Of a DNA stretch of 40,323 bases, positions 5,909-20,930 are shown piece after piece (positions within the stretch are counted from its first letter, which is position 1; every line of letters starts with the position of its first letter). Made by a program: the position numbers and the translations under genes. The stretch is from a virus (taxonomy: Duplodnaviria > Heunggongvirae > Uroviricota > Caudoviricetes), in the IMG/VR virus record IMGVR_UViG_2695420876_000014, one strand, 5' to 3'. The notes under the pieces were generated by a model. The model made no database searches. It had not been told where the DNA came from and was given only the letters and a program-made list of their open reading frames with translations.

Positions 5909-6067
5909 TTATGGCGATACCAGAGAGCTTTCTGCGTGTACATGCGTCTCTGTAACTTGCTCTCCTTCACTGTGGTTGCAAGTGACATGAATATCTCCTT
6001 CGTTACCGATTAATTCTTTCATCTGACGAATGAATTCTTCGTCTGACCAGTTATCTGTAAAACTCAT
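5909..6067 (-). CDS. hypothetical small protein in the kil position
   Basis: 52-aa reading MSFTDNWSDEEFIRQMKELIGNEG...; ATG overlaps the cIII-like stop in an ATGA arrangement. Confidence 0.4.
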   Translation of the reverse strand: MSFTDNWSDEEFIRQMKELIGNEGDIHVTCNHSEGEQVTETHVHAESSLVSP

Positions 6068-6234
6068 GGACGGCCTTGTTGTTTCAAAATATCCCAAAGC
6101 TTTTCGAGCAAACTTTTCATTCTTGGTTGTTTAAAGTCTGCTCCGGTTAAAATATTTTTTCGTGAATGCTGCACCGATAAAATCGGGTTGAAAGGGCGAA
6201 CCGATGCCGCCCCTGCAATAGCGAACTGTTGCAT
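6064..6234 (-). CDS. cIII: cIII-like protein (FtsH inhibitor that stabilises CII)
   Basis: 56-aa reading MQQFAIAGAASVRPF...KSLLEKLWDILKQQGRP resembles lambda CIII (MQYAIAGW...KRLIDILNQPGVP); good SD (aaggag) before the ATG at 6232-6234; the longer track ORF 6064..6339 would read through a terminator. Confidence 0.55.
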   Translation of the reverse strand: MQQFAIAGAASVRPFNPILSVQHSRKNILTGADFKQPRMKSLLEKLWDILKQQGRP

Positions 6235-6297
6235 AGGATGCTCCTTCTGTTTGATTGCATAACGAAAACGCCTCAAGTGAAGCGTTATTGGTATGCA

Positions 6298-6323
6298 TAT
6301 AAAAAAGCCCTCGCACTGGAGGG
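6298..6323 (-). terminator. rho-independent terminator inside the leftward early operon (tL-like)
   Basis: Minus-strand reading gccctccagtgcgagggc followed by ttttttatat; lies between the ral-like and cIII-like genes. Confidence 0.6.
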
Positions 6324-6460
6324 CAAAGAAGATTTCCAATAATCAGAACAAGTCGGCTCCTGTTTAGTTACGAGCGACATTGCTCCGTGTATTCACTCGT
6401 TGGAATGAATACACAGTGCAGTGTTTATTCTGTTATTTATGCCAAAAATAAAGGCCACTA

Positions 6461-6661
6461 TCAGGCAGCTTTGTTGTTCTGTTTACCAAGTTCTCTGGCA
6501 ATCATTGCCGTCGCTCGTATTGCCCATTTATCGACATATTTCCCATCTTCCATTACAGGAAACATTTCTTCAGGCTTAACCATGCATTCCGATTGCAGCT
6601 TGCATCCATTGCATCGCTTGAATTGTCCACACCATTGATTTTTATCAATAGTCGTAGTCAT
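6461..6661 (-). CDS. ral: restriction alleviation protein Ral-like
   Basis: 66-aa ORF MTTTIDKNQWCGQFKRCNGCKLQSECMV... matches my recollection of lambda Ral in size, sequence and position between N and cIII; from memory only. Confidence 0.55.
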   Translation of the reverse strand: MTTTIDKNQWCGQFKRCNGCKLQSECMVKPEEMFPVMEDGKYVDKWAIRATAMIARELGKQNNKAA

Positions 6662-6874
6662 AAGGATAGTCCTGGTATTGTTCCATCACATCCTGGGGAT
6701 GCTCTTCGAACTCTTCAAATTCTTCTTCCATATATCACCTTAAATAGTGGATTGCGGTAGTAAAGATTGTGCCTGTCTTTTAACCACATCAGGCTCGGTG
6801 GTTCTCGTGTACCCCTACAGCGAGAAATCGGATAAACTCTATTCACCCCTACAGAGAGCAAAAGAGAAACGCCG

Positions 6875-7456
6875 ATGAACAACTCATGGTGGCAGGAACT
6901 AATGCATTTTTTCCTGCAAGGAATGACACTTAAACAGTTGATTCATATGCTAATCATCCTGATCATATTGATTATTGTTATGCCGGTAAGCGTAAAAGAA
7001 TGGATAAACCTGCATAATCCAGAAATCCTTCCTCATTACTGGATGTATTACATCCTGTTGTTTTGCGTTAGCTATGTGCTTAACGGCGTTGTTAATTCCG
7101 CTTATCACGCTGTGACTGAAAGAATTGAGGTATTCGCTGCTCAGAAGCGCAAATCTAAAGAAGAAAAATATGTGCAAGATTTGTTTGATTCGTTAACTCT
7201 TGGAGAAAGAGCGTATTTGGCATTCGCTGTAGCCGCTAATAACCAGCTACAAACGGAAAAGGGAGCTCATGAATCAATTTCATTGCTCAAAAAAGGACTC
7301 CTCGTTCGAAGGCCTCCTGCTGTTGGGTATCCTGATACCGACCGTTTTGTTATTCCTGAAAGCTATAGACATGAGTGCTACATTCGGTTTGCCGGGAAGG
7401 CAGACAGCCTTATGGATGAACTTATCGCTCAGGATAAGCATGGCAAAAACAAGTAA
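6875..7456 (+). CDS. sieB: superinfection exclusion protein SieB-like (two N-terminal TM helices)
   Basis: 193 aa with two hydrophobic helices (LIHMLIILIILIIVMPV and YILLFCVSYVLNGVV) and a soluble C-terminal domain; lies in the N-proximal early-left region but on the opposite strand to N. Confidence 0.55.
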   Translation: MNNSWWQELMHFFLQGMTLKQLIHMLIILIILIIVMPVSVKEWINLHNPEILPHYWMYYILLFCVSYVLNGVVNSAYHAVTERIEVFAAQKRKSKEEKYVQDLFDSLTLGERAYLAFAVAANNQLQTEKGAHESISLLKKGLLVRRPPAVGYPDTDRFVIPESYRHECYIRFAGKADSLMDELIAQDKHGKNK

Positions 7457-7472
7457 TTAGCAAATGAATTTA

Positions 7473-7856
7473 TCATCTCGCCGTCAGTTGTTTGGATTTC
7501 CGGTAGCCTGCCGCGTAAATGGCTACGTTTGGAAGACATACACCAGTTTCTGGTTGCTTATGTCCAAACTCATTCGCGTACACAATGGCCGCTCGCTCCA
7601 GATTGCGTCTGTATTCTTTCTGTTGCCAGATCACGTCCTGTGCCATGAACTTAATTGGCTTAGCGTCTTCTATACGCTCAGGCGTTTCGTGAGTACCTTT
7701 AGCCTGAATCTGCGCTCTGCTTAGAGTAGGGCGGTGTAATACTTCTGAACTTATTGCTTCTTCGCGGGCCAGTACGCCGTTAGCTAATGCCTTTACCTTT
7801 AAACGCTCACGACGACGAGAACGTGAATTGCCTTTGAACTGAGTTCTGCGTGTCAT
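7473..7856 (-). CDS. N-like transcription antiterminator with a P22-type arginine-rich motif
   Basis: 127 aa; N-terminus MTRRTQFKGNSRSRRRERLKVKALANG resembles the RNA-binding ARM of P22/phage-21 N proteins; strong SD (aggagg) before the ATG; matching P22-type boxB hairpins found at both nut positions. Confidence 0.75.
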   Translation of the reverse strand: MTRRTQFKGNSRSRRRERLKVKALANGVLAREEAISSEVLHRPTLSRAQIQAKGTHETPERIEDAKPIKFMAQDVIWQQKEYRRNLERAAIVYANEFGHKQPETGVCLPNVAIYAAGYRKSKQLTAR

Positions 7857-8021
7857 ATAGACCTCCTGATGAACTTTGGTGGTGTGGTAGGTGGGAGACC
7901 CATTTCGACCTGTTTCGGCCTACTTCAATTCGGCAATAGTCCCGCAGGCCTCGCCGCTTTACGTGCGACATATTCCCGTCCATGAACCCTTCACCACACC
8001 CCAAAGTTCACTTTGGTTATT

Positions 8022-8036
8022 GCGCTTTGTCAGCGC
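8022..8036 (-). promoter_or_regulatory. nutL boxB hairpin (minus-strand GCGCTGACAAAGCGC)
   Basis: Reverse complement of 8022-8036 is GCGCTGACAAAGCGC, a 5-bp stem with GACAA pentaloop as in P22 boxB; upstream of N in the leftward transcript. No convincing boxA was found next to it. Confidence 0.6.
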
Positions 8037-8107
8037 CGTAGATTCATATTCGAATCGTTGTATATTCACCGCCCTGGTGAGTAGTGCGTCCTGCTGATGG
8101 GTGAACT

Positions 8108-8160
8108 TTATCGGAATGATAAATTAATGGCAATAGCAAAATGATAAATTCTCTTGGTTT
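8108..8160. promoter_or_regulatory. OL/pL region with repeated ATGATAAAT operator-like half-sites
   Basis: ggaatgataaattaatgg and aaaatgataaattctc in an AT-rich gap upstream of nutL and N; the same motif recurs three times between cI and cro. Confidence 0.45.
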
Positions 8161-8330
8161 TCAAATATCGTATTGATTCTTATGGTGTTTTATTTTGTTG
8201 TAGGAATTCGACAGGATAAATAAAGAGATTTGAGGGAGATCTGGATTGCGTTGTTTAGCAAGTTGTATCTATTTATTTTTCAACAAATACAATTGGTTAT
8301 GTGTTTTTAGGTGTGGGGATCGTGAGGCAA

Positions 8331-8354
8331 AGAAAACCCGGCGCTGAGGCCGGG
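8331..8354 (-). terminator. rho-independent terminator ending the cI operon
   Basis: Minus-strand reading cccggcctcagcgccggg followed by ttttcttt, just downstream of the stop at 8363. Confidence 0.7.
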
Positions 8355-8362
8355 TTAATGCG

Positions 8363-8983
8363 TTAATGCTGGGGAGTGATTTTTTTGTTGTCTGTTGGCT
8401 GGGTATTTTGTGGCGGCGCTTGCAAAGTGGAAGGCTGTTGCAAAGGTACGTGGTCTGACTTTAAAGCTGATACCAGCCCGGGAATCGCAACTATTACAGC
8501 GATAATGACACTAAAAATGGCTAATCGTATAGAAATACCCGACTGAACACCACTAATTGCGGTATTAACCCCTGTTATTTGTCCTTGAATTCCTTCGAAT
8601 CTCCCATTAATTGCTTTTATATCGCCAGCAGCGCTATCCATCTTTCCATCGATCTTGGACGATAGAGAGCTTATGGCTGCATTAAGTGATGCAAATTGGA
8701 CATTAACGCTTTCACGAGATAGAGCCATGTCAGCCCTAATGGAAGAAGCAATAGACTCCATCTCTGCTTTATTAGCAGCTAAGCGAGCATCAAGTTCCTC
8801 TCTGCTGATCGTTCCCACTTCTTCCTCCGTTTGTGGCGGTTTTATGTAATTATTTTGCACCTTGGTGGGAGAATTATCAAATTCAGCCTCAAAATCGGAA
8901 CCGCCAACAACCTTCAACCTCCGGCTTTCAGATATGTTGGTGTCTTGCTTTCCATGATTATTTAAATTACTGTCGTCACTCAT
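8363..8983 (-). CDS. tail-anchored coiled-coil membrane protein of unknown function (third gene of the cI operon)
   Basis: 206 aa: polar N-terminus, long Ser/Ala-rich heptad-like middle, one C-terminal TM helix (IRLAIFSVIIAVIVAIPGLVSAL) and a Pro/Gln-rich tail; ATG overlaps the stop of the upstream gene (ATGA). Confidence 0.6.
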   Translation of the reverse strand: MSDDSNLNNHGKQDTNISESRRLKVVGGSDFEAEFDNSPTKVQNNYIKPPQTEEEVGTISREELDARLAANKAEMESIASSIRADMALSRESVNVQFASLNAAISSLSSKIDGKMDSAAGDIKAINGRFEGIQGQITGVNTAISGVQSGISIRLAIFSVIIAVIVAIPGLVSALKSDHVPLQQPSTLQAPPQNTQPTDNKKITPQH

Positions 8984-9468
8984 AATAGCTCTACGGTGAA
9001 AAATGATTCATTTTTATGAAGTTCATTTTTAGGGTCTTCATTATCTTGCAATATCCCTATAACACTATACAGCCCTTTAGCTGGGACCCTAATTTCTTTC
9101 AATGTTACTATTACCTGTCCGCCAACCCCTGTTTCAAAATGGCTATCTTTCGTATCGATGAAAAGTGAAACTGATTCCGAAGAGCCGTCAGGGAATTGAA
9201 TTTCCTCACCTTTTTTTATAATTAGGTGCGCGGGGATTACCATAATACCCAAATTATATCTTGAATTTGGTTTCAACCCGATCATACCAACCCTGAAATC
9301 AATTGATAGCCGCGCAGGAAATTCATTGCATGTAAAATTAAGCGTCGGTTGGTTGGGTTCTTCGCTGCTATCAAATGGGGTTATAAAAGATATTCTTTCT
9401 AAATTAAGTGCCATAAATTCTCCTGCATCGCTGTATGCTCTACGAGCATCTCTGCGATCATCCATCAT
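8980..9468 (-). CDS. hypothetical protein (second gene of the cI operon)
   Basis: 162-aa ORF; a better-supported start is the internal MALNLERISF at 9414 (aggag 8 nt upstream), giving 144 aa; no recognisable domain. Confidence 0.55.
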   Translation of the reverse strand: MMDDRRDARRAYSDAGEFMALNLERISFITPFDSSEEPNQPTLNFTCNEFPARLSIDFRVGMIGLKPNSRYNLGIMVIPAHLIIKKGEEIQFPDGSSESVSLFIDTKDSHFETGVGGQVIVTLKEIRVPAKGLYSVIGILQDNEDPKNELHKNESFFTVELL

Positions 9469-9484
9469 CCAAACGTCTCTTCAC

Positions 9485-9826
9485 TCATCCGAAGAAGCAG
9501 CAATCCGGGTCAGCACGCACAAGCTCAAGCGCATCAGTCAGCGAAAGTTCAGTACTGTACTGATGCCATTTCATATCCTTCCGCATCCAATAGATTTTCC
9601 ATCTATCCAGAGAACGTATGTACTTGATTCTTGCTGATGGCAGGATGTTTGTTTCACCTGGGTTGCCCTGCCACACGGGGCGCTGTTCGCCGATATCTAT
9701 CGTTTGGTCATTGATGCTATAAACAATATCCAGTTCATTGCGGATATGTTCAGGCGGCCTTATGCTTTCAATGAATTGGTGAACTTCTTTTTTGACCGCT
9801 TGATATTCAAGGTCAGTGAACGCCAT
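9485..9826 (-). CDS. hypothetical protein (first gene downstream of cI)
   Basis: 113-aa ORF MAFTDLEYQAVKKEVHQFIESIRPPEH... with a strong SD (gaggagg) 4 nt before the ATG; 60 nt downstream of the cI stop on the same strand. Confidence 0.6.
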   Translation of the reverse strand: MAFTDLEYQAVKKEVHQFIESIRPPEHIRNELDIVYSINDQTIDIGEQRPVWQGNPGETNILPSARIKYIRSLDRWKIYWMRKDMKWHQYSTELSLTDALELVRADPDCCFFG

Positions 9827-9886
9827 CTATCCTCCTCACCCAAACGTTTCTTCTGGCCACTGGTTACCAGCTATGTGACGATGAAG

Positions 9887-10591
9887 TCACGAACTTTTCA
9901 GCCACTCCCTTGCCTCGATGTCATCCAGATGGCGAGATTGCTTCAGAATACCAGCTACATACTCCACCTTTGCTACTTGATGATAAGGCAACGTTATAGG
10001 CCTGTGATCCTGGTTAATGCTTGTAAATTGGTATTCTCCATCTCTGTCATAGCCAAGAACCTTAATCATGTTGTGTCCTTCAACGGTTCTGACAAACACC
10101 TCATCACCCGGGAATACTTTGGTGTTAGGCTCAATGAGTACATATTCTCCTGATTTTATTCTGGGCCACATGCTGTCTCCTTTCACACGAAGACCAAAGG
10201 CATCTGGATCATCGCTATAAATTTTGAGCCACCCATCGCGCTCTTCGGTCATCTCGATGGCACCATCAACACCAAGAATTGCCTCACCAACCACGCGCAC
10301 TAACCCTTTTCTTACCTGACCGACAAAAGTTAAAGAATCTGAGCATGATGCAATTGGTGTTACATCATGTACCAAATCAAGCCACCCATTAGGTAACCCA
10401 AGCGCGGCTTCAAATTTTCTTGCTAGTTTATCCCCTATGTTTCGAGTGCTTTTTTCACCGGAGACTTGCGTGAGTTGAGAAGGGCTAACCCCAAGCTTAT
10501 CGGCAAAGCTTGCATTAGTGTTACCCGCGATTTTTTTATGCTCATCTAGCAAAAACGCCAGATTCGATTTGCGAATATCTTTGTTTTCCAT
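9887..10591 (-). CDS. cI: CI-like prophage repressor (N-terminal HTH, C-terminal S24 LexA-type autopeptidase)
   Basis: 234 aa; HTH-like FADKLGVSPSQLTQV and a C-terminal domain with VKGDSMWPRIKSGEYVLIEPN (catalytic Ser, with Lys downstream) typical of RecA-cleavable repressors; divergent from the cro-like gene. Confidence 0.9.
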   Translation of the reverse strand: MENKDIRKSNLAFLLDEHKKIAGNTNASFADKLGVSPSQLTQVSGEKSTRNIGDKLARKFEAALGLPNGWLDLVHDVTPIASCSDSLTFVGQVRKGLVRVVGEAILGVDGAIEMTEERDGWLKIYSDDPDAFGLRVKGDSMWPRIKSGEYVLIEPNTKVFPGDEVFVRTVEGHNMIKVLGYDRDGEYQFTSINQDHRPITLPYHQVAKVEYVAGILKQSRHLDDIEAREWLKSS

Positions 10592-10611
10592 CTCACAATT
10601 TTCCCTCTATT

Positions 10612-10672
10612 TAGCAAATGGATAAATACGCAATATGATAAATTTACATTGCGGATTATTTATCAAAATGGT
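10612..10672. promoter_or_regulatory. OR/pR/pRM region with three GATAAAT-type operator half-sites
   Basis: aaatggataaatacg, aatatgataaatttac and, inverted, attatttatcaaaatgg lie between the divergent cI and cro starts. Confidence 0.5.
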
Positions 10673-10704
10673 AAAGTTGTTCTGTGTGATAAACGGAGGC
10701 ACTA

Positions 10705-10938
10705 ATGAGTAATGAACTACTACGCTGGCGAAAAGAGGCTTCTAGTGAGGAATGGAAGCGACTCGCCGCATTAGCGAAAACTTCAGTTGGCTATCTTGAC
10801 CAGATTGCATATGGATTTCGAAGAGCTTCCCCTGATAAAGCGAATGCAATCGAAGAAGCTACTCGTAATTTCACGGGTTATAAACCTGTGAAAAAGGAAA
10901 ACCTAGTGTTCGTATCGCGTAGAGCATCGGCTGCATAA
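10705..10938 (+). CDS. cro: Cro-like HTH regulator
   Basis: 77-aa ORF divergent from cI, preceded by an SD (ggagg); contains an HTH-like segment (AKTSVGYLDQIAYGFRRAS). Confidence 0.55.
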   Translation: MSNELLRWRKEASSEEWKRLAALAKTSVGYLDQIAYGFRRASPDKANAIEEATRNFTGYKPVKKENLVFVSRRASAA

Positions 10939-10945
10939 GTAACAC

Positions 10946-10991
10946 CGCTCTTTTCACAATGGACATTCGTCCTACGTCGCTGACAAAGCGA
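10946..10991 (+). promoter_or_regulatory. nutR: boxA (cgctctttt) and P22-type boxB (tcgctgacaaagcga)
   Basis: boxA-like CGCTCTTTT at 10946-10954; hairpin with GACAA loop at 10977-10991; located between cro and cII on the rightward transcript. Confidence 0.6.
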
Positions 10992-11076
10992 GTCCCAATA
11001 TATCTGACCAACTAAGGCCATATGCGTTTCCACGCATACCTTTCAACTAGCTATTCACTATTGGAAATCTTAAGAA

Positions 11077-11376
11077 ATGGAACAAACAAGTTACAGCAAA
11101 CTATCACAGCGAGAAATTGATCGCGCTGAAACTGATTTACTCATCAACCTGTCAACGCTTACCCAGCGCGGTCTGGCAAAGATGATTGGCTGTCATGAAT
11201 CGAAGATAAGCAGAACGGACTGGAGATTTATTGCTTCGGTCTTGTGTGCTTTCGGAATGGCATCAGACATCAGTCCGATTAGCAGGGCTTTTAAGTATGC
11301 GCTTGATGAACTCACCAATAAAAAACGCCCGGTGTGCAAGACCGAGCGTTCTGAACAAATCAAGATGGAATTCTGA
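11077..11376 (+). CDS. cII: CII-like transcriptional activator
   Basis: 99 aa; C-terminus ELTNKKRPVCKTERSEQIKMEF closely resembles lambda CII (ILTNKKRPAATERSEQIQMEF); sits between cro and O. Confidence 0.8.
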   Translation: MEQTSYSKLSQREIDRAETDLLINLSTLTQRGLAKMIGCHESKISRTDWRFIASVLCAFGMASDISPISRAFKYALDELTNKKRPVCKTERSEQIKMEF

Positions 11377-11408
11377 GGTCATTACTGGATCTATCAACAG
11401 GAGTCATT

Positions 11409-12347
11409 ATGACAAATACAGCAAAAATACTCAACTTCGGCAGAAGTAACTTTGCCGGACAGGAGCGTAATGTGGCAGATCTCGATGATGGTTACGCCAG
11501 ACTATCAAATATGCTGATTGAGGCTTATTCAGGCGCAGATCTGACCAAGCGACAGTTTAAAGTGCTGCTTGCCATTCTGCGTAAAACCTATGGGTGGAAT
11601 AAACCAATGGACAGAATCACCGATTCTCAACTTAGCGAGATTACAAAGTTACCTGTCAAACGGTGCAATGAAGCCAAGTTAGAACTCGTCAGAATGAATA
11701 TTATCAAGCAGCAAGGCGGCATGTTTGGACCAAATAAAAACATCTCAGAATGGTGCATCCCTCAAAACGAGGGAGGTTCCCCTAAAATGAGGGACATCCC
11801 TCAAAACGAGGGAAAATCCCCTAAAACGAGGGATAAAACATCCCTCAAATTAGGGGATTGCTATCCCTCAAAACAGGGGGACACAAAAGACACTATTACA
11901 AAAGAAAAAAGAAAAGATTATTCGTCCGAGAATTCTGGCGAATCCTCTGACCAGCCAGAAAACGATCTTTCTGTGGTTAAACCGGATGCTGCAATTCAGA
12001 GCGGCAGCAAGTGGGGAACAGCAGAAGACCTGACCGCCGCAGAGTGGATGTTTGACATGGTGAAGACCATCGCACCATCAGCCAGAAAACCGAATTTTGC
12101 AGGGTGGGCTAACGATATCCGCCTGATGCGTGAACGTGACGGACGTAACCACCGCGACATGTGCGTGCTGTTCCGCTGGGCATGCCAGGACAACTTCTGG
12201 TCCGGTAACGTGCTAAGTCCGGCCAAACTCCGCGACAAGTGGACCCAACTCGAAATCAACCGTAACAAGCAACAGGCAGGCGTGACAGCCGGAAAACCAA
12301 AACTCGACCTGACAAACACTGACTGGATTTACGGGGTGGATTTATGA
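11409..12347 (+). CDS. O: replication initiator O (lambda type)
   Basis: 312 aa; MTNTAKILNFGRSNFAGQERNVADLDDGYARLSNML... recognised as lambda O, with an extra repeat-encoded segment (IPQNEGGSPKMRD) in the origin-binding region. Confidence 0.92.
   Translation: MTNTAKILNFGRSNFAGQERNVADLDDGYARLSNMLIEAYSGADLTKRQFKVLLAILRKTYGWNKPMDRITDSQLSEITKLPVKRCNEAKLELVRMNIIKQQGGMFGPNKNISEWCIPQNEGGSPKMRDIPQNEGKSPKTRDKTSLKLGDCYPSKQGDTKDTITKEKRKDYSSENSGESSDQPENDLSVVKPDAAIQSGSKWGTAEDLTAAEWMFDMVKTIAPSARKPNFAGWANDIRLMRERDGRNHRDMCVLFRWACQDNFWSGNVLSPAKLRDKWTQLEINRNKQQAGVTAGKPKLDLTNTDWIYGVDL
11757..11880. repeat. replication origin iterons inside the O gene, about six ~18-bp direct repeats of (A)TCCCTCAAAACGAGGGA
   Basis: Repeats begin near 11757, 11777, 11796, 11817, 11840 and 11862; each is an internal palindrome (tccctc...gaggga); an A-rich tract follows (11881-11925). 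Confidence 0.85.
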
Positions 12348-13045
12348 AAAACATCGCCGCACAGATGGTTAATTTTGACCGTGAGCAGATGCGTCGGATC
12401 GCCAACAACATGCCGGAACAGTACGACGAAAAGCCGCAGGTACAGCAGGTAGCGCAGATCATCAACGGTGTGTTCAGCCAGTTACTGGCAACTTTCCCGG
12501 CGAGCCTGGCTAACCGTGACCAGAACGAACTGAACGAAATCCGCCGCCAGTGGGTTCTGGCTTTCCGGGAAAACGGGATCACCACAATGGAACAGGTTAA
12601 CGCAGGAATGCGCGTAGCCCGTCGGCAGAATCGACCATTTCTGCCATCACCCGGGCAGTTTGTTGCATGGTGCCGGGAAGAAGCATCCGTTATCGCCGGA
12701 CTGCCAAACGTCAGCGAGCTGGTTGATATGGTTTACGAGTATTGCCGGAAGCGTGGCCTGTATCCGGATGCGGAGTCTTATCCGTGGAAATCAAACGCGC
12801 ACTACTGGCTGGTCACCAACCTGTATCAGAACATGCGGGCCAATGCGCTTACTGATGCGGAATTACGCCGTAAGGCTGCCGATGAACTGACCTGTATGAC
12901 AGCGCGAATTAACCGTGGTGAGACGATACCTGAACCAGTAAAACAACTTCCTGTCATGGGCGGCAGACCTCTAAATCGTGTTCAGGCGCTGGCGAAGATC
13001 GCAGAAATTAAAGCTAAGTTCGGACTGAAAGGAGCAAGTGTATGA
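12344..13045 (+). CDS. P: replication protein P (DnaB helicase loader, lambda type)
   Basis: 233 aa; MKNIAAQMVNFDREQMRRIANNMPEQYDEKPQVQQ... recognised as near-identical to lambda P; start overlaps the O stop. Confidence 0.95.
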   Translation: MKNIAAQMVNFDREQMRRIANNMPEQYDEKPQVQQVAQIINGVFSQLLATFPASLANRDQNELNEIRRQWVLAFRENGITTMEQVNAGMRVARRQNRPFLPSPGQFVAWCREEASVIAGLPNVSELVDMVYEYCRKRGLYPDAESYPWKSNAHYWLVTNLYQNMRANALTDAELRRKAADELTCMTARINRGETIPEPVKQLPVMGGRPLNRVQALAKIAEIKAKFGLKGASV

Positions 13046-13332
13046 CGGGCAAAGAGGCAATTATTCATTACCTGGGGACGCATAATAGCTTCTGTGCGCC
13101 GGACGTTGCCGCGTTAACAGGCGCAACAGTAACCAGCATAAATCAGGCCGCGGCTAAAATGGCACGGGCAGGTCTTCTGGTTATCGAAGGTAAGGTCTGG
13201 CGAACGGTGTATTACCGGTTTGCTACCAAGGAAGAACGGGAAGGAAAGATGAGCACGAACCTGATTTTTAAGGAGTGTTGCCAGAGTGCCGCGATGAAAC
13301 GGGTATTGGCGGTATATGGAGTTAAAAGATGA
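13042..13332 (+). CDS. ren: Ren (Rex exclusion escape protein)
   Basis: 96 aa; MTGKEAIIHYLGTHNSFCAPDVAALTGATVTSINQAAAKMARAGLL... recognised as lambda Ren. Confidence 0.9.
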   Translation: MTGKEAIIHYLGTHNSFCAPDVAALTGATVTSINQAAAKMARAGLLVIEGKVWRTVYYRFATKEEREGKMSTNLIFKECCQSAAMKRVLAVYGVKR

Positions 13333-13356
13333 CCATCTACATCACTGAGCTAATAA

Positions 13357-13389
13357 CAGGCCTGCTGGTAATCGCAGGCCTTTTTATTT
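13357..13389 (+). terminator. rho-independent terminator after ren (tR2-like)
   Basis: Hairpin aggcctgc...gcaggcct followed by tttttattt. Confidence 0.7.
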
Positions 13390-13404
13390 GGGGGAGAGTA
13401 AATC

Positions 13405-13611
13405 GTGGCTGAGTTAATTTTCTCTGCATTGAGGATTCTCGGTGCTATGTGGATGGTGTCGACGTTCATTGCGGTTGTCGGAAGTTTTGTCCGGTTGGTA
13501 GGCGAAGGTAAAGACCTGGTGGGTGTGCTTTTCGGTAGCATTCTCCTGTGGGTGATTATCGGTGTTGCGCCTGTCGCTGTAGCAAAAATGGCGTGGCGTT
13601 TTGTGAGTTGA
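13405..13611 (+). CDS. small two-TM membrane protein (GTG start)
   Basis: 68 aa, almost entirely hydrophobic; an SD (ggagag) precedes the GTG; sits immediately after the terminator. Confidence 0.4.
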   Translation: MAELIFSALRILGAMWMVSTFIAVVGSFVRLVGEGKDLVGVLFGSILLWVIIGVAPVAVAKMAWRFVS

Positions 13612-13628
13612 ACTGAGGATAAGTATCG

Positions 13629-13967
13629 ATGGACGAATCAAGAAAGCAGTTTGAAGAAAGTTGGTTGCGACGTGGAGGCGAATCCTCAGACCTTATCCGT
13701 TACCCTGAAAATCACCATGAAATTGGCAGCGGTAATATTGGTGGTCAATACGTGATGGACGATGTTCAAGGCCACTGGCAAACGTGGCAGGCATCGCGAG
13801 CAGCTATTGAACTGGATATCGACTGGCCCGAATCGAATGACAACTTTTGGAAAGGTGGCGAAGAAGGCGCTTATGCGATGGGGCATGAGGATGGGAAGGA
13901 CAAAACGGTAATTGCAGTGATGAAAGCCATCAGGGCCGCAGGAATCAAAGAAAAGAATTTCGATTAA
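13629..13967 (+). CDS. hypothetical nin-region protein
   Basis: 112-aa ORF with an SD (gagga); no family recognised. Confidence 0.5.
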   Translation: MDESRKQFEESWLRRGGESSDLIRYPENHHEIGSGNIGGQYVMDDVQGHWQTWQASRAAIELDIDWPESNDNFWKGGEEGAYAMGHEDGKDKTVIAVMKAIRAAGIKEKNFD

Positions 13968-14099
13968 GCAAATATCACTTCAATAAATCGCTTTTAAGGC
14001 ATCACAATCGCTCTGTGGTGAGGTAAGCACGTGCAAGGCATGCCGATAAGCAGCGAGAATGAAAAATGCGTCAGAATGCGTTTGAGGAGGTTTTAAGAA

Positions 14100-14315
14100 A
14101 TGAGTACGATAGCTGAGCTTGTCAGGGCTAATTTTCGTGAAGAGTTGGTGCGTTGGTATCGGTATCGTTCATCGTCCAGTTTGCCGCTTGATGAGTTGTA
14201 TGAGCATTCACCTGCCGCACGACGCTATCCGCGTGACCGTGTTCTTCGACGGTTGTTCAAACTCAACAATGAGTTTCAGCGCAACAGAATTATCCGGAGT
14301 CTGGATTTTAAGTGA
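14100..14315 (+). CDS. hypothetical small nin-region protein
   Basis: 71-aa ORF preceded by a strong SD (gaggagg). Confidence 0.5.
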   Translation: MSTIAELVRANFREELVRWYRYRSSSSLPLDELYEHSPAARRYPRDRVLRRLFKLNNEFQRNRIIRSLDFK

Positions 14316-14325
14316 AGGAGTGAGC

Positions 14326-14562
14326 ATGAGCGACCTATCATTAACCCAGCCAAAGCTAAAAGAATGTCCGTTTTGCGGCGGTAATGCTCGTCTGTGGGTT
14401 GAGGCCGGAATAAATATTGATGTGTGGGGCTATGCAGAATGTGACCTCTGTGAAGCCAGGGGGGCATGGGCACCATCAGTTGCTGCGGCGGCTGAAAAAT
14501 GGAACCGGAGAGCAGGAGATGAAGCAAACCTTTCTGCTTCGCAACGAAGCAATCAGAAATAA
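14326..14562 (+). CDS. Lar-family restriction alleviation protein (zinc-ribbon)
   Basis: Track ORF 14119..14562 trimmed to MSDLSLTQPKLKECPFCGGNARLW... (SD aaggag); the CPFCGG...C..C pattern is typical of Lar-like proteins; overlaps the ninB start by 44 nt. Confidence 0.55.
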   Translation: MSDLSLTQPKLKECPFCGGNARLWVEAGINIDVWGYAECDLCEARGAWAPSVAAAAEKWNRRAGDEANLSASQRSNQK

Positions 14563-14965
14563 CGCCATAGACGCCATTCTCTCACTACCCATCGACGACA
14601 AGTCACCCCACGAAGTCCACGTTAAAGAACCCAAGCGCAGCAAAGCGCAGAATGACCGTATGTGGCCGATGCTGAACGATGTTTCGCGTCAGGTGCTATG
14701 GCATGGTCAACGGCTGGCGCCGGAAGACTGGAAAGACCTGTTCACTGCCCTGTGGCTTAAGACCAAAAAACTGGAGCAACGAAGTGTGCCTGGTATCGAC
14801 GGTGGCGTTGTCATGCTTGGCGTGCGTACCAGCAAAATGCGGAAGGCCAGCATGACTGAGCTTATCGAAATCATGTTCTGGTTCGGCTCAGAGCGCAACG
14901 TGCGGTGGAGTGATGACTCCTGGCGAGAGTATGAATGGTCACAACGAAAAGGGAGAGCTGCATGA
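14519..14965 (+). CDS. ninB: NinB/Orf family recombination protein
   Basis: Track ORF 14417..14965 trimmed to MKQTFLLRNEAIRNNAIDAILSLP...; resembles lambda NinB (...DQNRKLWACLGDVSRQVEWHGRWL...). Confidence 0.8.
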   Translation: MKQTFLLRNEAIRNNAIDAILSLPIDDKSPHEVHVKEPKRSKAQNDRMWPMLNDVSRQVLWHGQRLAPEDWKDLFTALWLKTKKLEQRSVPGIDGGVVMLGVRTSKMRKASMTELIEIMFWFGSERNVRWSDDSWREYEWSQRKGRAA

Positions 14966-15489
14966 CTATCAAATCAAATACGCCATCACACGACAAGGAC
15001 TGCTGGCAAACGCCGCTTTGGCTTTTTGATGCACTGGATATTGAGTTTGGATTCTGGCTGGATTCGGCAGCGAGCGACAAAAATGCTCTGTGTGCTCACT
15101 GGCTAACTGAGGCCGACGACGCGCTCAATTCTGAGTGGGTAAGCCACGGTGCAATCTGGAATAACCCACCGTACAGCAATATCAGGCCGTGGGTGGAAAA
15201 AGCCGCTGAGCAGTGCATACGACAGCGACAGACGGTAGTGATGCTTGTGCCAGAGGATATGTCAGTCGGATGGTTCAGCAAGGCTCTGGAGAGTGTCGAC
15301 GAAGTTCGCATTATCACTGATGGACGGATTAATTTTATCGAACCATCGACAGGGCTGGAGAAGAAGGGAAACAGCAAAGGCTCCATGCTGCTGATTTGGC
15401 GACCGTTCATCAGTCCTCGACGGATGTTTACTACCGTATCCAAAGCGGCATTGATGGCGATCGGGCAGGGCGTCAGGAGGGCGGAATGA
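14962..15489 (+). CDS. phage DNA N6-adenine methyltransferase (Dam-like)
   Basis: Start re-assigned to [25 protein letters not shown]... (SD aagggagag; ATGA overlap with the ninB stop); contains the NPPY catalytic motif ([10 protein letters not shown]). Confidence 0.8.
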
Positions 15490-15668
15490 GGCGACAGCAA
15501 CGAAGTATCACCGACATAATCTGCGAAAACTGCAAATACCTTCCAACGAAACGCTCCAGAAATAAACGCAAGCCAATCCCAAAAGAATCTGACGTAAAAA
15601 CCTTCAACTACACGGCTCACCTGTGGGATATCCGGTGGCTTAGAGAACGTGCGAGGAAAACAAGGTGA
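15486..15668 (+). CDS. ninE: NinE
   Basis: 60-aa reading [60 protein letters not shown] recognised as lambda NinE; ATGA overlap with the methyltransferase stop. Confidence 0.8.
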
Positions 15669-15835
15669 TTGACCAAAATCGAAGTTACGAACAAGGAAGT
15701 GTCGAGCGAGCTTTAACGTGCGCTAACTGCGGTCAGAAGCTGCATGTGCTGGAAGTTCACGTGTGCTCCGATTGCTGCGCAGAACTGATGAGCGATCCGA
15801 ATAGCTCAATGTACGAGGAAGAAGACGATGAATGA
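15665..15835 (+). CDS. ninF: NinF (GTG start; below the 60-aa cutoff of the ORF track)
   Basis: Hand translation from the GTG at 15665 gives (M)[55 protein letters not shown], resembling lambda NinF. Confidence 0.7.
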
Positions 15836-16550
15836 GTTAATAAATGGCAATGCCATCAAAATGACAAGCATTGAAATCGCTGAGTTGGTGGGTAAGCGCC
15901 ATGACAATGTGAAACGTACCATAGAAACGCTGGCTAAAAATGGTGTTATCCGGCTTCCTCAAATTGAGGTTTCCGAAAGAATCAATAACTTAGGGTTCAA
16001 TGTTCAGTACGAGCATTACGTCTTCGAGGGCGAACAAGGTAAGCGAGACAGTATTGTCGTTGTTGCCCAGTTGTCGCCAGAGTTCACCGCTCGCCTTGTT
16101 GACCGCTGGCGAGATCTTGAAGAAGCTGCGGTTAATATCCCCAAAACGCTACCGGAAGCGTTGCGCCTTGCTGCCGATCTTGCTGAGCAGAAAATGCAAC
16201 TGGAAAACCAGCTCGCAATTGTCGCACCTAAAGTTGAGTTTGCCGATCGCGTTGGCGAGGCCAGCGGAATTTTGATTGGAAACTTTGCAAAGGTTGTTGG
16301 AATTGGTCCAAACAAACTGTTTGCGTGGATGCGCGATCACAAAATCCTTATTGCTTCAGGTTCCCGGCGCAATGTGCCAATGCAGGAATATATGGAGCGC
16401 GGCTATTTCACAGTGAAAGAAACAGCGGTCAACACAAATCACGGAATACAGATATCGTTCACCACAAAAATCACCGGGCGTGGTCAACAGTGGCTGACCA
16501 GAAAGCTGCTCGATAACAGAATGCTGAAAGTAACAGGGGAGGCTGCTTAA
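15828..16550 (+). CDS. Rha-N / KilAC-domain antirepressor-like protein
   Basis: 240 aa; N-terminus ...MTSIEIAELVGKRHDNVKRTIETL... matches the Rha regulatory family and the C-terminal half looks like a KilAC/ANT domain. Confidence 0.65.
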   Translation: MNELINGNAIKMTSIEIAELVGKRHDNVKRTIETLAKNGVIRLPQIEVSERINNLGFNVQYEHYVFEGEQGKRDSIVVVAQLSPEFTARLVDRWRDLEEAAVNIPKTLPEALRLAADLAEQKMQLENQLAIVAPKVEFADRVGEASGILIGNFAKVVGIGPNKLFAWMRDHKILIASGSRRNVPMQEYMERGYFTVKETAVNTNHGIQISFTTKITGRGQQWLTRKLLDNRMLKVTGEAA

Positions 16551-17199: not shown

Positions 17200-17384
17200 A
17201 CGCCACAATTCAAACGATACCAGAGCTTCTTATCTAGACACGAGGCAATCAGACCGAAGTGGCAAGGATGCTTTCCTGCGCAAGAGGAACAGTGCTCAAG
17301 TACAACCGAGACAGCAAAGGCGAGCGTCACGTAATAGTTAACGGCGTCCTGATGGTCAAACAGGGCAAAAGGGGAAGGCCATGA
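17196..17384 (+). pseudogene. ninH: NinH-like HTH gene interrupted by an in-frame TAG at codon 14
   Basis: Frame from the ATG at 17196 reads MNATIQTIPELLI-stop-TRGNQTEVARMLSCARGTVLKYNRDSKGERHVIVNGVLMV...; resembles lambda NinH (...IPDMLVEAYGNQTEVARRLKCSRGTVRKY...); the TAG is at 17235-17237. Confidence 0.5.
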
Positions 17385-18004
17385 GACTCGAAAGCGTAGC
17401 TAAATTTCATTCGCCAAAAAGCCCGATGATGAGCGACTCACCACGGGCTACGGCTTCTGACTCTCTTTCCGGTACTGATGTGATGGCTGCTATGGGGATG
17501 GCGCAATCACAAGCCGGATTCGGAATGGCTGCATTCTGCGGTAAGCATGAACTCAGCCAGAACGACAAACAAAAGGCTATCAACTATCTGATGCAATTTG
17601 CACACAAGGTATCGGGGAAATACCGTGGTGTGGCAAAGCTCGAAGGAAATACTAAGGCAAAGGTACTGCAAGTGCTCGCAACATTCGCTTATGCGGATTA
17701 TTGCCGTAGTGCTGCGACGCCGGGAGCAAGATGCAGAGATTGTCACGGTACAGGCCGTGCGGTTGATATAGCCAAAACGGAGCAGTGGGGGAGAGTTGTT
17801 GAGAAAGAGTGCGGAAGATGCAAAGGCGTCGGCTATTCAAGGATGCCAGCAAGCGCCGCATATCGCGCTGTAACGATGCTAATCCCAAACCTTACTCAAC
17901 CCACCTGGTCACGCACTGTTAAGCCGCTGTATGACGCTCTGGTGGTGCAATGCCACAAGGAAGAGTCAATCGCAGACAATATTTTGAATGCGGTCACACG
18001 TTAG
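17381..18004 (+). CDS. Q: late-gene antiterminator Q (lambda type)
   Basis: 207 aa; MRLESVAKFHSPKSPMMSDSPRATASDSLSG... recognised as near-identical to lambda Q; the lambda-like pR' and qut region follows. Confidence 0.95.
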   Translation: MRLESVAKFHSPKSPMMSDSPRATASDSLSGTDVMAAMGMAQSQAGFGMAAFCGKHELSQNDKQKAINYLMQFAHKVSGKYRGVAKLEGNTKAKVLQVLATFAYADYCRSAATPGARCRDCHGTGRAVDIAKTEQWGRVVEKECGRCKGVGYSRMPASAAYRAVTMLIPNLTQPTWSRTVKPLYDALVVQCHKEESIADNILNAVTR

Positions 18005-18046
18005 CAGCATGATTGCCACGGATGGCAACATATTAACGGCATAATA

Positions 18047-18075
18047 TTGACTTTTTGAATAAAGTTGGGTAAATT
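18047..18075 (+). promoter_or_regulatory. late promoter pR' (-35 ttgact, 17-bp spacer, -10 taaatt) with the Q utilisation site just downstream
   Basis: ttgactttttgaataaagttgggtaaatttgactcaacgatggg matches my recollection of lambda pR'/qut. Confidence 0.8.
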
Positions 18076-18218
18076 TGACTCAACGATGGGTTAATTCGCT
18101 CGTTGTGGTAGTGAGATGAAAAGAGGCGGCTCTTACTCCCGATTCCGCCTAGTTGGTCACTTCGACGTATCGTCTGGAACTCCAACCATCGCAGGCTGAG
18201 AGGTCTGCAAAATGCAAT

Positions 18219-18276
18219 CCCGAAACAGTTCGCAGGTAATAGTTAGAGCCTGCATAACGGTTTCGGGATTTTTTAT
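18219..18276 (+). terminator. tR' terminator (3' end of the short 6S late transcript)
   Basis: cccgaaac...gtttcggg hairpin followed by attttttat, as in lambda tR'. Confidence 0.8.
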
Positions 18277-18691
18277 GTCTGTGCAACAGGTAAGATCATT
18301 TGTAGAGTTCGACTCTCTACCGTGGGCTTTTTCCCGCGATGCGAGCCATAAATGCTCTTTCCGTTGTGCTGAATTAAGCGAATACCGGAAGCAGAACCGG
18401 ATCACCAAATGCGTACAGGCGTCATCGCCGCCCAGCAACAGCACAACCCAAACTGAGCCGTAGCCACTGGCTATCCTGAACTCATCAGTGATAGTTATGC
18501 TGCGGCCTTCTACGCATGACCTTCGTGAAAGCGGGTGGCATGAGGCTGCGCTAACAACCTCCTGCCGTTTTGCCCGTGCATATCGGTCACGAACAAATCT
18601 GATTACTAAACACAGTAGCCTGGATTTGTTCTATCAGTAATCGACCTTATTCCTAATTAAATAGAGCAAATCCCCTTATTGGGGGTAAGAC

Positions 18692-19015
18692 ATGAAGATG
18701 CCAGAAAAACATGACCTGTTAGCCGCCATTCTCGCGGCAAAGGAACAAGGCATCGGGGCAATCCTTGCGTTTGCAATGGCGTACCTTCGCGGCAGATATA
18801 ATGGCGGTGCGTTTACAAAAACAGTAATCGACGCAACGATGTGCGCCATTATCGCCTGGTTCATTCGTGACCTTCTCGACTTCGCTGGACTAAGTAGCAA
18901 TCTCGCTTATATAACGAGCGTGTTCATCGGCTACATCGGTACTGACTCGATTGGTTCGCTTATCAAACGCTTCGCTGCTAAAAAAGCCGGAGTAGAAGAT
19001 GGTGGAAATCAGTAA
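18692..19015 (+). CDS. S: holin S (class I, dual-start MKM)
   Basis: 107 aa; [39 protein letters not shown]... recognised as lambda S. Confidence 0.95.
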
Positions 19016-19475
19016 TCAACGTAAGGCGTTCCTCGATATGCTGGCGTGGTCAGAGGGAACTGATAACGGACGTCAGAAAACCAGAAATCATGGTTATGAC
19101 GTCATTGTTGGCGGAGAGCTATTCACTGATTACTCCGATCACCCTCGCAAACTTGTCACGCTAAACCCAAAACTCAAATCAACAGCAGCCGGACGTTACC
19201 AGCTTCTTTCCCGTTGGTGGGATGCCTACCGTAAGCAGCTTGGTCTGAAAGACTTCTCTCCCAAAAGTCAGGACGCTGTGGCATTGCAGCAGATTAAAGA
19301 GCGTGGCGCTTTACCGATGATTGATCGCGGTGATATACGTCAGGCAATCGACCGTTGCAGCAATATTTGGGCTTCAATGCCTGGGGCTGGTTACGGTCAG
19401 TTCGAGCATAAGGCTGACAGCCTGATTGCAAAATTCAAAGAAGCAGGCGGAACGGTCAGAGAGATTGAGGTATGA
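18999..19475 (+). CDS. R: endolysin R (lytic transglycosylase)
   Basis: 158 aa; ...[43 protein letters not shown]... recognised as lambda R. Confidence 0.95.
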
Positions 19476-19945: not shown

Positions 19946-20221
19946 ATGACTGAGCTTTATCACCGCATCTCAACTTTTCTCTCTGGTTGCTGGGCGTTTA
20001 TCACGTCTATTTCGTTCGCCATCTTTAGTTTCGGTAGCACAGCGTGCTCGCTTAGTCGAGGTCTGTGGCGTGCTATTTCAGCACTAGCGCCAAAATTTTT
20101 ACCTGAAAAGGCTGTTTGGCGAATTGTAGAGCGAATGTGTAGTGAGAGCGTTCGCGAGAAGATTAACGTATTTGGACGTCATCCTCGAAATACAGGCGCA
20201 TTGTGCAGTCCGTTACTGTAG
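19946..20221 (+). CDS. hypothetical protein with a hydrophobic N-terminal half
   Basis: 91-aa ORF with a strong RBS (aggag 7 nt upstream); composition is unusual, so it could be spurious. Confidence 0.4.
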   Translation: MTELYHRISTFLSGCWAFITSISFAIFSFGSTACSLSRGLWRAISALAPKFLPEKAVWRIVERMCSESVREKINVFGRHPRNTGALCSPLL

Positions 20222-20827: not shown

Positions 20828-20930
20828 TTATTACAAAAGCCATTCCCTACAGAGTGGCTTTGATAATGGCTTATACCCTACACGGGATAACTTAACTGAT
20901 ATCCCTTTTAACGGATAAACGGAGCCAACA

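What the first reader, a model, noticed from the sequence alone, without database searches (positions are those of the whole stretch)
10946..10991. nutR with boxA and P22-type boxB downstream of cro, inside an otherwise lambda-like right operon
CGCTCTTTT (10946-10954) and the hairpin tcgctgacaaagcga (10977-10991) sit between the cro-like gene and the lambda-like cII, O and P genes. The nut sites and N are therefore of one specificity (P22-like) while the downstream replication genes appear near-identical to lambda, marking a recombination joint within the immunity region.
Basis: partly seen in the sequence, partly recalled or inferred. Interest (0 to 1): 0.4.

Follow-up and report, generated by a model that had tools for sequence, protein, structure and literature searches.

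The report
Known H-19B/933W-type nutR antitermination site
The flagged 46 bases are a real but already known phage control site, the "nutR" RNA signal that lets the phage N protein carry transcription past terminators. It is the same site annotated in Shiga-toxin phage 933W and studied experimentally in phage H-19B, so the finding is correct but ordinary.

Summary
CGCTCTTTT (10946-10954) and the hairpin TCGCTGACAAAGCGA (10977-10991) lie between cro and cII. The same boxB core lies downstream of pL (8022-8036, minus strand), ahead of an N gene 97% identical to H-19B N. The 46 nt equal the nutR annotated in phage 933W (AF125520) except for one boxA base.

N belongs to the P22-type N family in Pfam, and nutL boxB is identical to P22 nutL boxB. 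O, P and ren are about 97% lambda. However, lambda identity starts only at 11311, at the oop terminator inside the 3' end of cII. It does not start at nutR or in the immunity region. Cro and most of cII are not lambda-like.

The stretch 10600-13100 is collinear at 97.6% with BP-4795 and H-19B. The stretch 7473-13972 is 99.7% identical to an E. coli prophage. The mosaic is therefore old and widely shared. nutR plus tR1 (about 110 bp) behaves as its own exchangeable cassette. Novelty: already known. Interest: low.

The parts
10946..10954 (+). nutR boxA, CGCTCTTTT
   Evidence: Read directly. It matches the start of the annotated 933W nutR, where the sequence is CGCTATTTT. It is polymorphic among relatives: CGCTATTTT 46, CGCTCTTTT 31, CACTCTTTT 2. 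It is absent in Salmonella and Enterobacter relatives.
10961..10972 (+). nutR spacer hairpin GGAC-ATTC-GTCC, the 'reducer' stem-loop of H-19B-type nut sites
   Evidence: It appears in both the MFE and centroid folds. It is identical in relatives that are about 75% identical overall. A GGGC variant keeps pairing as G.U. [quoted passage not shown]
10972..10976 (+). CUACG motif immediately 5' of boxB
   Evidence: It is invariant before boxB in every nutR and nutL variant collected, including the divergent Salmonella and Enterobacter phages.
10977..10991 (+). nutR boxB hairpin TCGCT-GACAA-AGCGA, the inferred binding site of the N arginine-rich motif
   Evidence: The stem covaries across relatives. 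N plus NusA/NusG protect boxB and the spacer of the H-19B nutR RNA, which carries the same boxB and spacer sequence, in footprinting (PMC3526286).
11021..11038 (+). tR1-region hairpin TATGCGT-TTCC-ACGCATA, in the position of the lambda tR1 hairpin, with no T-run after it
   Evidence: Fold of 10940-11060. The positional equivalent in lambda is seen. H-19B nutR/tR1 is used as a Rho-dependent terminator in PMC3526286. The intergenic RNA is C-rich and G-poor, with 38 C against 21 G in 138 nt.
10705..10938 (+). cro-like gene of H-19B/BP-4795 immunity type
   Evidence: ORF. It is 96-100% identical to H-19B cro DNA. It is unrelated to lambda Cro. It has a weak PHROG hit to a transcriptional repressor family.
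10611..10639 (+). pR-like promoter, TTAGCA-17-TATGAT
   Evidence: Consensus scan only. It lies between the divergent cI and cro genes.
11077..11376 (+). cII gene (Phage_CII). The 5' three quarters are non-lambda and the last ~65 nt are lambda-like.
   Evidence: Pfam E-value 3e-35. It is 40% identical to lambda cII as protein. Alignment.
11322..11352 (-). oop-type intrinsic terminator, which marks the left edge of the lambda-like block
   Evidence: Terminator scan found 12 pairs plus a T-run. The lambda alignment starts at 11311.
11311..13398 (+). lambda-like replication block: oop, O (with a 39-bp iteron duplication), P and ren
   Evidence: 95.5-97.3% identity to lambda 38591-40636. Identity profile. 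Iteron array.
7473..7856 (-). N antiterminator gene, 127 aa, with arginine-rich motif 12-RSRRRER-18
   Evidence: 97% identical to H-19B N. Pfam PF25694 at 56 bits against a 27.9 cut-off. PHROG 271, N-like. The ARM residues are those mutated in PMC3526286.
8022..8036 (-). nutL boxB, GCGCT-GACAA-AGCGC
   Evidence: It is identical to P22 nutL boxB and to the boxB of the annotated 933W nutL.
8041..8056 (-). nutL spacer hairpin, GATTC-GAATAT-GAATC
   Evidence: Fold. The stem is invariant while the loop takes 7 different sequences among relatives. No boxA match better than 5/9 lies upstream.
8105..8133 (-). pL-like promoter, TTGCCA-17-TAAAGT
   Evidence: Consensus scan only. It sits about 60 nt upstream of nutL boxB.

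Best explanation
The element is the nutR site of a lambdoid early right operon, of the H-19B/933W type.

Proposed mechanism:
- Transcription from pR passes cro and produces an RNA carrying boxA, a small spacer hairpin, the CUACG motif and the boxB hairpin.
- The phage N protein (7473-7856, minus strand) binds boxB through its N-terminal arginine-rich motif.
- With NusA (and NusG), N then loads onto the elongating RNA polymerase and makes it resistant to the overlapping Rho-dependent terminator tR1 and to later terminators. This allows cII, O, P and the downstream genes to be expressed.
- A matching nutL (8022-8056, minus strand) does the same for the left operon.
- The spacer hairpin is thought to shorten the effective distance between the upstream elements and boxB.
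- boxA is probably of minor importance in this nut type.

Shown here: the sequence elements, their pairing with N and nutL, their conservation and covariation, and near identity with sites that have been tested experimentally.
Inferred: function in this particular phage, and its host-factor requirements.
For: - The elements are at the stated coordinates, and the boxB core occurs only at the two expected places, each oriented with transcription.
- Both nut RNAs fold into spacer hairpin plus boxB hairpin.
- The 46 nt equal the nutR annotated in 933W (AF125520, 13096-13141) except for one boxA base. nutL likewise matches the annotated 933W nutL, with one difference in 67 nt.
- N is 123/127 identical to H-19B N and falls in the P22-type N Pfam family.
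- The N ARM aligns with the P22 N ARM: FKGNSRSRRRER against FAGNAKTRRHER.
- Every one of about 80 IMG/VR contigs encoding this N that covers the sites carries the same boxB at nutL and nutR.
- In divergent Salmonella and Enterobacter phages the boxB stems covary. Pair 1 takes four pair types; pairs 2 and 3 take two each. The spacer-hairpin stems are kept while loops vary.
- Published experiments used the H-19B nutR/tR1, which differs from this one by a single boxA base. They show N-dependent antitermination of the Rho-dependent tR1, dependence on the ARM (12-RSRRRER-18), and protection of the spacer and boxB but not boxA by N plus NusA/NusG (PMC3526286; PMC4499122).
- The title of Neely & Friedman 2000 is given in the reference list seen. 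Its content (boxA dispensable, NusB and S10 not needed, 'reducer' hairpin) is recalled from memory.
Against: - No experiment exists on this phage itself.
- The boxA allele here (CGCTCTTTT) differs from the tested H-19B allele (CGCTATTTT).
- The boxA octamer is not statistically unusual in the window.
- The whole-region fold z-scores are modest, -1.7 to -2.6.
- Rfam has no nut/boxB family, so there is no curated-model confirmation.
- The Rho dependence of tR1 here is inferred only from homology and a C-rich, G-poor composition.
Confidence: 0.92

Rival explanations
1. A P22-derived N/nut set was recently joined to a lambda right operon, with the recombination joint at or next to nutR inside the immunity region.
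For: - The boxB loop GACAA and the nutL boxB are identical to P22 nutL.
- The last ~70 nt of N and the adjacent sieB/esc region align to P22 at 85-88%.
- O, P and ren are about 97% lambda.
Against: - Lambda identity starts at 11311, not at nutR.
- P22 has no DNA match to nutR, nutL or the 5' part of N.
- N is 97% H-19B type.
- The whole N-to-ren block is shared at 97.6-99.7% with many Stx phages and E. coli prophages, so the arrangement is neither recent nor specific to this genome.
Confidence: 0.05
2. The site acts mainly as the Rho-loading (rut) region and pause signal of terminator tR1. The boxA and boxB resemblance would then be a vestige with no N-dependent role in this phage.
For: - In H-19B, Rho footprints on the nutR spacer, and the nut and rut sites overlap (PMC3526286).
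- The region is C-rich and G-poor.
- boxA is variable among relatives.
Against: - An intact N gene with a strong ribosome-binding site lies downstream of pL, with an identical-specificity nutL between them.
- boxB is invariant in about 80 relatives and covaries in distant ones.
- The two roles are not exclusive; published data show Rho and N occupying the site together.
Confidence: 0.03
3. The boxA-like string and the small hairpin in an intergenic region are a chance coincidence.
For: The boxA octamer is not enriched, with 5 copies against 1.76 expected. Small hairpins are common.
Against: - The 13-mer boxB core is present exactly twice, at the two canonical positions and strands. A search allowing one mismatch found 3 sites against 0.10 expected.
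- The 46 nt are identical, apart from one boxA base, to an annotated and experimentally used nutR.
Confidence: 0.01

Closest known systems
nutR (and nutL) of Shiga-toxin phages H-19B and 933W. The sites are annotated in GenBank AF125520, and H-19B nutR/tR1 is used in the antitermination studies PMC3526286 and PMC4499122.
   Same: - 45 of 46 nt are identical to the annotated 933W nutR.
- The spacer hairpin, CUACG motif, boxB and downstream tR1 hairpin are the same.
- nutL is the same apart from 1 nt.
- N is 97% identical, including the ARM RSRRRER.

   Different: - boxA position 5 is C here (CGCTCTTTT, closer to the lambda/rrn consensus) and A in H-19B, 933W and BP-4795. Both alleles are common among relatives.
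- The host genome here is a P22-like podovirus without stx, not a Stx phage.
- The cargo genes between N and cI differ.
- In the cII 3'-end patch (11325-11400) the window is closer to lambda than these phages are.
P22 nutL and nutR with gp24 (N)
   Same: - The boxB loop is GACAA.
- nutL boxB is 15/15 identical, and nutR boxB shares 13/15 with P22 nutL boxB.
- N is in the same Pfam family (PF25694).
- The ARM core G-N-x-[KR]-[ST]-R-R-x-E-R and the C-terminal 21 residues are similar.

   Different: - P22 nut sites have a short spacer without the spacer hairpin.
- P22 nutR boxB (CCGCC-GACAA-CGCGG) differs in its stem.
- The N proteins align by BLASTP only over the last 30 residues.
- There is no DNA-level homology around the sites.
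- Cross-specificity was not tested.
Lambda nutR / tR1
   Same: The architecture and position are the same: the cro stop, then boxA within about 10 nt, spacer, boxB, a hairpin in the tR1 zone, then cII. The boxA core CGCTCTT is shared.
   Different: - The boxB sequence and loop differ (GCCCT-GAAAA-AGGGC).
- The spacer is 8 nt in lambda and 22 nt here.
- Lambda N belongs to a different Pfam family, N36.
- DNA identity is at background level until 11311.
Phage 21-type nut sites, as found in PA28 and HK629
   Same: They occupy the same slot between cro and the same type of cII. PA28 is identical to the window from the cro stop through CGCTCTTT of boxA.
   Different: The sequence diverges immediately after boxA into a phi21-type boxB (TCACCTCTAACAGGGTGA). 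These sites are paired with a phi21-type N ARM.

Membership tests
Lambdoid N-utilisation (nut) site | Located in the early transcript just downstream of pR/cro (nutR), with a second copy downstream of pL and upstream of N (nutL), both in the sense orientation | tested here: met
   nutR lies 8-54 nt after the cro stop. The nutL boxB lies about 60 nt after the pL-like promoter and about 165 nt before the N start codon.
Lambdoid N-utilisation (nut) site | boxB: a short hairpin with a 5-bp stem and a purine-rich 5-nt loop, of the same type at nutL and nutR | tested here: met
   The hairpins are TCGCT-GACAA-AGCGA and GCGCT-GACAA-AGCGC. The stem covaries among relatives.
Lambdoid N-utilisation (nut) site | boxA (consensus CGCTCTTTA) located 5' of boxB | tested here: inconclusive
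   nutR has CGCTCTTTT, an 8/9 match. nutL has no match better than 5/9. boxA is polymorphic or absent in relatives. This fits the H-19B type, in which boxA is reported to be dispensable (recalled from Neely & Friedman 2000).
Lambdoid N-utilisation (nut) site | A cognate N protein with an N-terminal arginine-rich motif, encoded in the left operon | tested here: met
   A 127-aa ORF matches Pfam PF25694 and PHROG 271, has ARM 12-RSRRRER-18, and is 97% identical to H-19B N.
Lambdoid N-utilisation (nut) site | N- and boxB-dependent read-through of downstream terminators | not testable with these tools
   This has been shown experimentally only for the H-19B nutR, which differs by a single boxA base (PMC3526286, PMC4499122).
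H-19B/933W-type nut site | Long boxA-boxB spacer containing a dyad-symmetry stem-loop in both nutL and nutR | tested here: met
   nutR has GGAC-ATTC-GTCC and nutL has GATTC-N6-GAATC. Both are predicted in the MFE and centroid folds. The stems are conserved while loops vary among relatives.
H-19B/933W-type nut site | Sequence identity with the annotated 933W nutR/nutL and the H-19B nut regions | tested here: met
   45/46 for nutR and 66/67 for nutL against 933W.
H-19B/933W-type nut site | Reduced host-factor requirement: independent of NusB and S10, dependent on NusA | not testable with these tools
   This property is recalled from Neely & Friedman 2000. Only the paper's title could be seen, in the reference list of PMC3526286; the paper itself is not held.
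P22-type N/boxB specificity class | boxB with a GACAA pentaloop closed by a U-A pair on a G/C stem | tested here: met
   Both sites meet this. nutL is identical to P22 nutL boxB.
P22-type N/boxB specificity class | N protein homologous to P22 gp24, including the ARM | tested here: met
   PF25694 at 56.3 bits against a cut-off of 27.9; P22 gp24 scores 152 bits in the same family. The ARM aligns. BLASTP aligns only the C-terminal 30 residues, at 67% identity.
P22-type N/boxB specificity class | Functional interchangeability with P22 gp24 and P22 nut sites | not tested
   No experiment or paper was found here.

The most novel reading that the evidence does not exclude
The single-base boxA polymorphism may be functional. 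In this reading, the consensus-like allele carried here (CGCUCUUUU, in 31 of 79 sequences) restores NusB/S10 binding. Phages with this allele would then use a fuller, lambda-like set of host factors. The CGCUAUUUU allele of H-19B, 933W and BP-4795 would work without those factors. One nut type would therefore exist in two host-factor-dependence states.

A related point concerns recombination. The shared boxA core appears to be the crossover point at which H-19B-type and phi21-type nut cassettes are exchanged behind the same cro.
Probability: 0.12. Interest if true: 0.3.

Novelty: already known. Interest (0 to 1): 0.1.

Why it matters
It matters little beyond correct annotation. The site tells an annotator that delayed-early expression in this P22-like E. 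coli phage is controlled by an H-19B-type N/nut system. It also shows that N, nutL and nutR travel as a matched set.

The comparison is a clean textbook example of lambdoid mosaicism. The same N-to-ren early block occurs in Stx phages, in a lambda-type prophage at ybhC and in this podovirus. The ~110-bp nutR-tR1 segment is bounded by joints at boxA and just before cII. The oop terminator marks the edge of the replication module.

None of this opens a new question.

Tried and rejected
- **Rfam scan of the whole window:** no hits. Rfam has no nut/boxB or oop model, so this neither supports nor refutes the site.
- **BLASTN of 6001-16000 against P22:** looked for a P22-derived nutR. It found only sieB/esc plus the last 70 nt of N and a few nin patches, so the idea of 'P22 DNA at nutR' was rejected.
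- **BLASTP of N against P22 gp24 and lambda N:** only the C-terminus aligns to P22 and there is only a marginal ARM match to lambda. The family-level link needed Pfam and a multiple alignment.
- **Neely & Friedman 2000:** the paper is not held. Its specific claims are therefore marked as recalled from memory.
- **MAFFT alignment of nutL and nutR variants for the count of structure pairs:** it misplaced the loop gap in the tetraloop variants. Pairs were tabulated explicitly in a script instead.
- **boxA significance:** not significant on its own.
- **Third boxB-like site at 34576-34588:** considered, but treated as chance. It has one mismatch in the loop and lies in the structural-gene region, with no boxA or spacer context examined.

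Full report
**1. Observation**

A 77-codon cro-like ORF (10705-10938) ends with TAA at 10936-10938. CGCTCTTTT occupies 10946-10954, TCGCTGACAAAGCGA occupies 10977-10991, and a cII gene starts at 11077.

The boxB core CGCTGACAAAGCG occurs exactly twice in the 40,323-base window. One copy is here on the + strand. The other is at 8023-8035 on the - strand, between a pL-like promoter (8133-8105) and an N gene (7856-7473). About 0.10 sites were expected, and no shuffle in 100 reached three.

Both 15-mers fold as 5-bp stems with a GACAA loop, with z-scores of -3.8 and -3.2. The boxA octamer alone is not unusual, with 5 copies against 1.76 expected. Its meaning comes from its position.

The 22-nt boxA-boxB spacer contains a 4-bp hairpin, GGAC-ATTC-GTCC (10961-10972). 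nutL has an analogous hairpin, GATTC-GAATAT-GAATC (8056-8041). Both appear in the MFE and centroid folds.

**2. What it is**

The 46 nt at 10946-10991 equal the feature annotated 'nutR; putative N-utilization rightward' in the 933W GenBank record (AF125520, 13096-13141), apart from one base in boxA. The base is C here and A in 933W, H-19B and BP-4795. The 67-nt annotated 933W nutL matches 8088-8022 with one difference.

The N protein is 123/127 identical to H-19B N. It passes the curated threshold of Pfam PF25694, at 56 bits against a cut-off of 27.9. P22 gp24 matches that family over its full length at 152 bits, while lambda N matches PF11438 instead. The arginine-rich motif aligns with that of P22 N: FKGNSRSRRRER against FAGNAKTRRHER. 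BLASTP itself aligns only the C-terminal 30 residues, at 67% identity.

The window's nutL boxB is 15/15 identical to P22 nutL boxB. 'P22-like specificity class' is therefore a fair description, but the precise family is the H-19B/933W nut type.

**3. Conservation**

About 80 IMG/VR contigs encode this N at 98-100% identity. Every contig that covers the sites has the same nutL and nutR boxB.

- boxA is polymorphic: CGCTATTTT 46, CGCTCTTTT 31, CACTCTTTT 2.
- The spacer hairpin changes only by A to G, which gives a G.U pair.
- The loop of the nutL spacer hairpin takes seven different sequences while its stem never changes.

More distant relatives were also examined: Salmonella phages Oslo, 103203_sal4 and GE_vB_TR, and Enterobacter phage MII_001. 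Their nutR DNA is about 75% identical, and their N proteins are of the same type.

- boxA is not recognisable.
- ACAA[C/U], the spacer hairpin and CUACG are kept.
- The boxB stems covary. The outermost pair is U-A, G-C, C-G or A-U. Pairs 2 and 3 take two types each.

This pattern supports boxB and the spacer hairpin as RNA structures under selection, and boxA as weakly constrained.

**4. Mechanism**

The mechanism follows from experiments on the H-19B nutR/tR1, which differs from this site by a single boxA base.

- H-19B N overcomes the Rho-dependent tR1 that overlaps nutR.
- Changing the ARM arginines (12-RSRRRER-18) abolishes this.
- N plus NusA/NusG protect the spacer and boxB, but not boxA, in RNase H and T1 footprints.
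- Rho's initial footprint is on the spacer.
- The RNA has two hairpins.

These results are in PMC3526286. PMC4499122 uses the same site.

From memory of Neely & Friedman 2000: H-19B N needs NusA but not NusB or S10, boxA is dispensable, and the spacer stem-loop (the 'reducer') brings the flanking elements together. Only the title could be verified here, because the paper is not held.

Downstream, the hairpin at 11021-11038 corresponds in position to the lambda tR1 hairpin. The intergenic RNA is C-rich and G-poor. The inference that this phage uses the site in the same way is strong but untested.

**5. The mosaic claim**

BLASTN and a three-way alignment were used to map identity.

- Lambda identity is at background level (0.3-0.55 per 50 nt) through cro, nutR and the first three quarters of cII.
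- It rises to about 97% at 11311 and ends at 13398, just after ren.
- The left edge coincides with the oop-type terminator on the minus strand (11352-11322).
- Cro is unrelated to lambda Cro, and cII is 40% identical as protein.
- Inside O, a 39-bp duplication adds two iterons relative to lambda, as annotated for 933W.
- P22 has no DNA match in 10600-13100 apart from a 33-nt patch at 11384-11416.

The whole stretch 10600-13100 aligns end to end at 97.6% with BP-4795, AU5Stx1 and many Stx1a phages, and at 97.0% with H-19B. The stretch 7473-13972 is 99.7% identical to a prophage of E. coli S1-IND-01-A, integrated next to ybhC, which has lambda-type head and tail genes. The lambda/non-lambda junction is therefore an old, widely shared feature.

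Finer joints do exist.

- 933W, which has a different cI and cro, becomes homologous at 10929.
- PA5 and Nil2 become homologous at 10945.
- Sakai-type Stx2 phages, mEpX1, HK629 and lambda variants share only cII, from about 11055-11062.
- PA28 is identical from the cro stop through CGCTCTTT and then switches to a phi21-type boxB, paired with a phi21-type N.

nutR-tR1 is thus a cassette of about 110 bp that co-varies with the N ARM. The 3' end of cII and oop forms a junction to at least four different replication modules among contigs carrying this same nutR. In 11325-11400 the window is closer to lambda (about 6 mismatches) than to the Stx phages (about 19).

**6. Context**

The window as a whole is a P22-like (Lederbergvirus-type) E. 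coli podovirus genome. Its virion genes are closest to CUS-3, Sf101, Sf6, Kapi1 and phiKp_30. Lambda-like patches are limited to:

- ea10/ral (6296-6854);
- the t_imm region (8236-8357);
- oop-O-P-ren (11311-13398);
- ninE/F (15493-15830);
- Q-S-R (17370-19584).

**7. Verdict**

The identification as nutR is right, and the type is H-19B/933W within the P22-like N/boxB class. The claim of a recombination joint at this site inside the immunity region is not supported as stated.

Everything seen is already annotated or published for close relatives. Novelty is 'already known' and interest is low.

The only mildly open point is whether the consensus-like boxA allele changes host-factor dependence.

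Noticed in passing
window 8363-9826 (-), with a terminator at 8335-8356 (-): Three cargo ORFs sit between cI and pL, in the position of lambda rexAB. The 113-aa DUF3024 protein (9485-9826) matches the PADLOC candidate defence family PDC-S43 at E = 7e-42. The 162-aa and 206-aa ORFs match only PHROGs of unknown function. H-19B, BP-4795 and 933W carry other genes in this slot, although 933W shares the DUF3024 gene region (9446-10340 at 97.8%).
   Followed up: partly
window 11756-11833: The O gene carries a 39-bp tandem duplication relative to lambda. This gives six ori iterons instead of four, as annotated in 933W, and an O protein of 312 aa.
   Followed up: partly
window 11311-11400; loci L004-L083: The cII 3' end and the oop terminator form a junction hot spot. 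Contigs with the same nutR and cII 5' part continue into at least four different downstream replication modules. In 11325-11400 the window is closer to lambda than to H-19B, BP-4795 or 933W.
   Followed up: partly
window 10936-10953; L093 (phage PA28) 3903-3925: PA28 is identical to the window from the cro stop through CGCTCTTT of boxA. It then switches to a phi21-type spacer and boxB. The boxA core therefore looks like the crossover point for exchanging nut cassettes.
   Followed up: partly
L094 (phage HK629) 2402-2674 (-): HK629 N is a natural hybrid. It has a phi21-type N-terminal ARM region joined to a C-terminal 21 residues (CLPNVAIYAAGYRKSKQLTAR) identical to the N of this window. It is paired with phi21-type nut sites.
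   Followed up: no
L086 (Salmonella phage GE_vB_TR) and L090 (Enterobacter phage vB_Ecl_MII_001), nutL and nutR: Relatives of this nut type have boxB hairpins with a true GAAA tetraloop in place of the GACAA pentaloop, at both nutL and nutR. The stem changes are compensatory, and at least in MII_001 the N ARM is altered (MTRRTAFNGSASGRRRERR).
   Followed up: partly
window 34576-34588 (+): A third boxB-like sequence, CGCTGACGAAGCG, has one mismatch in the loop and lies in the virion-gene region. It is probably chance, and its context was not examined.
   Followed up: no
L091 (E. coli S1-IND-01-A chromosome) 20001-26501: The same N-to-ren block, at 99.7% identity, sits in a lambda-type siphovirus prophage next to ybhC, whereas the window has P22-like virion genes. 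In that RefSeq record N is not called as a gene; only a 69-nt pseudogene fragment labelled 'regulator' is annotated.
   Followed up: partly
window, whole: Rfam 15 reports no family anywhere in the 40-kb phage genome at gathering thresholds. The nut sites and the oop-like antisense RNA therefore have no curated RNA model.
   Followed up: no
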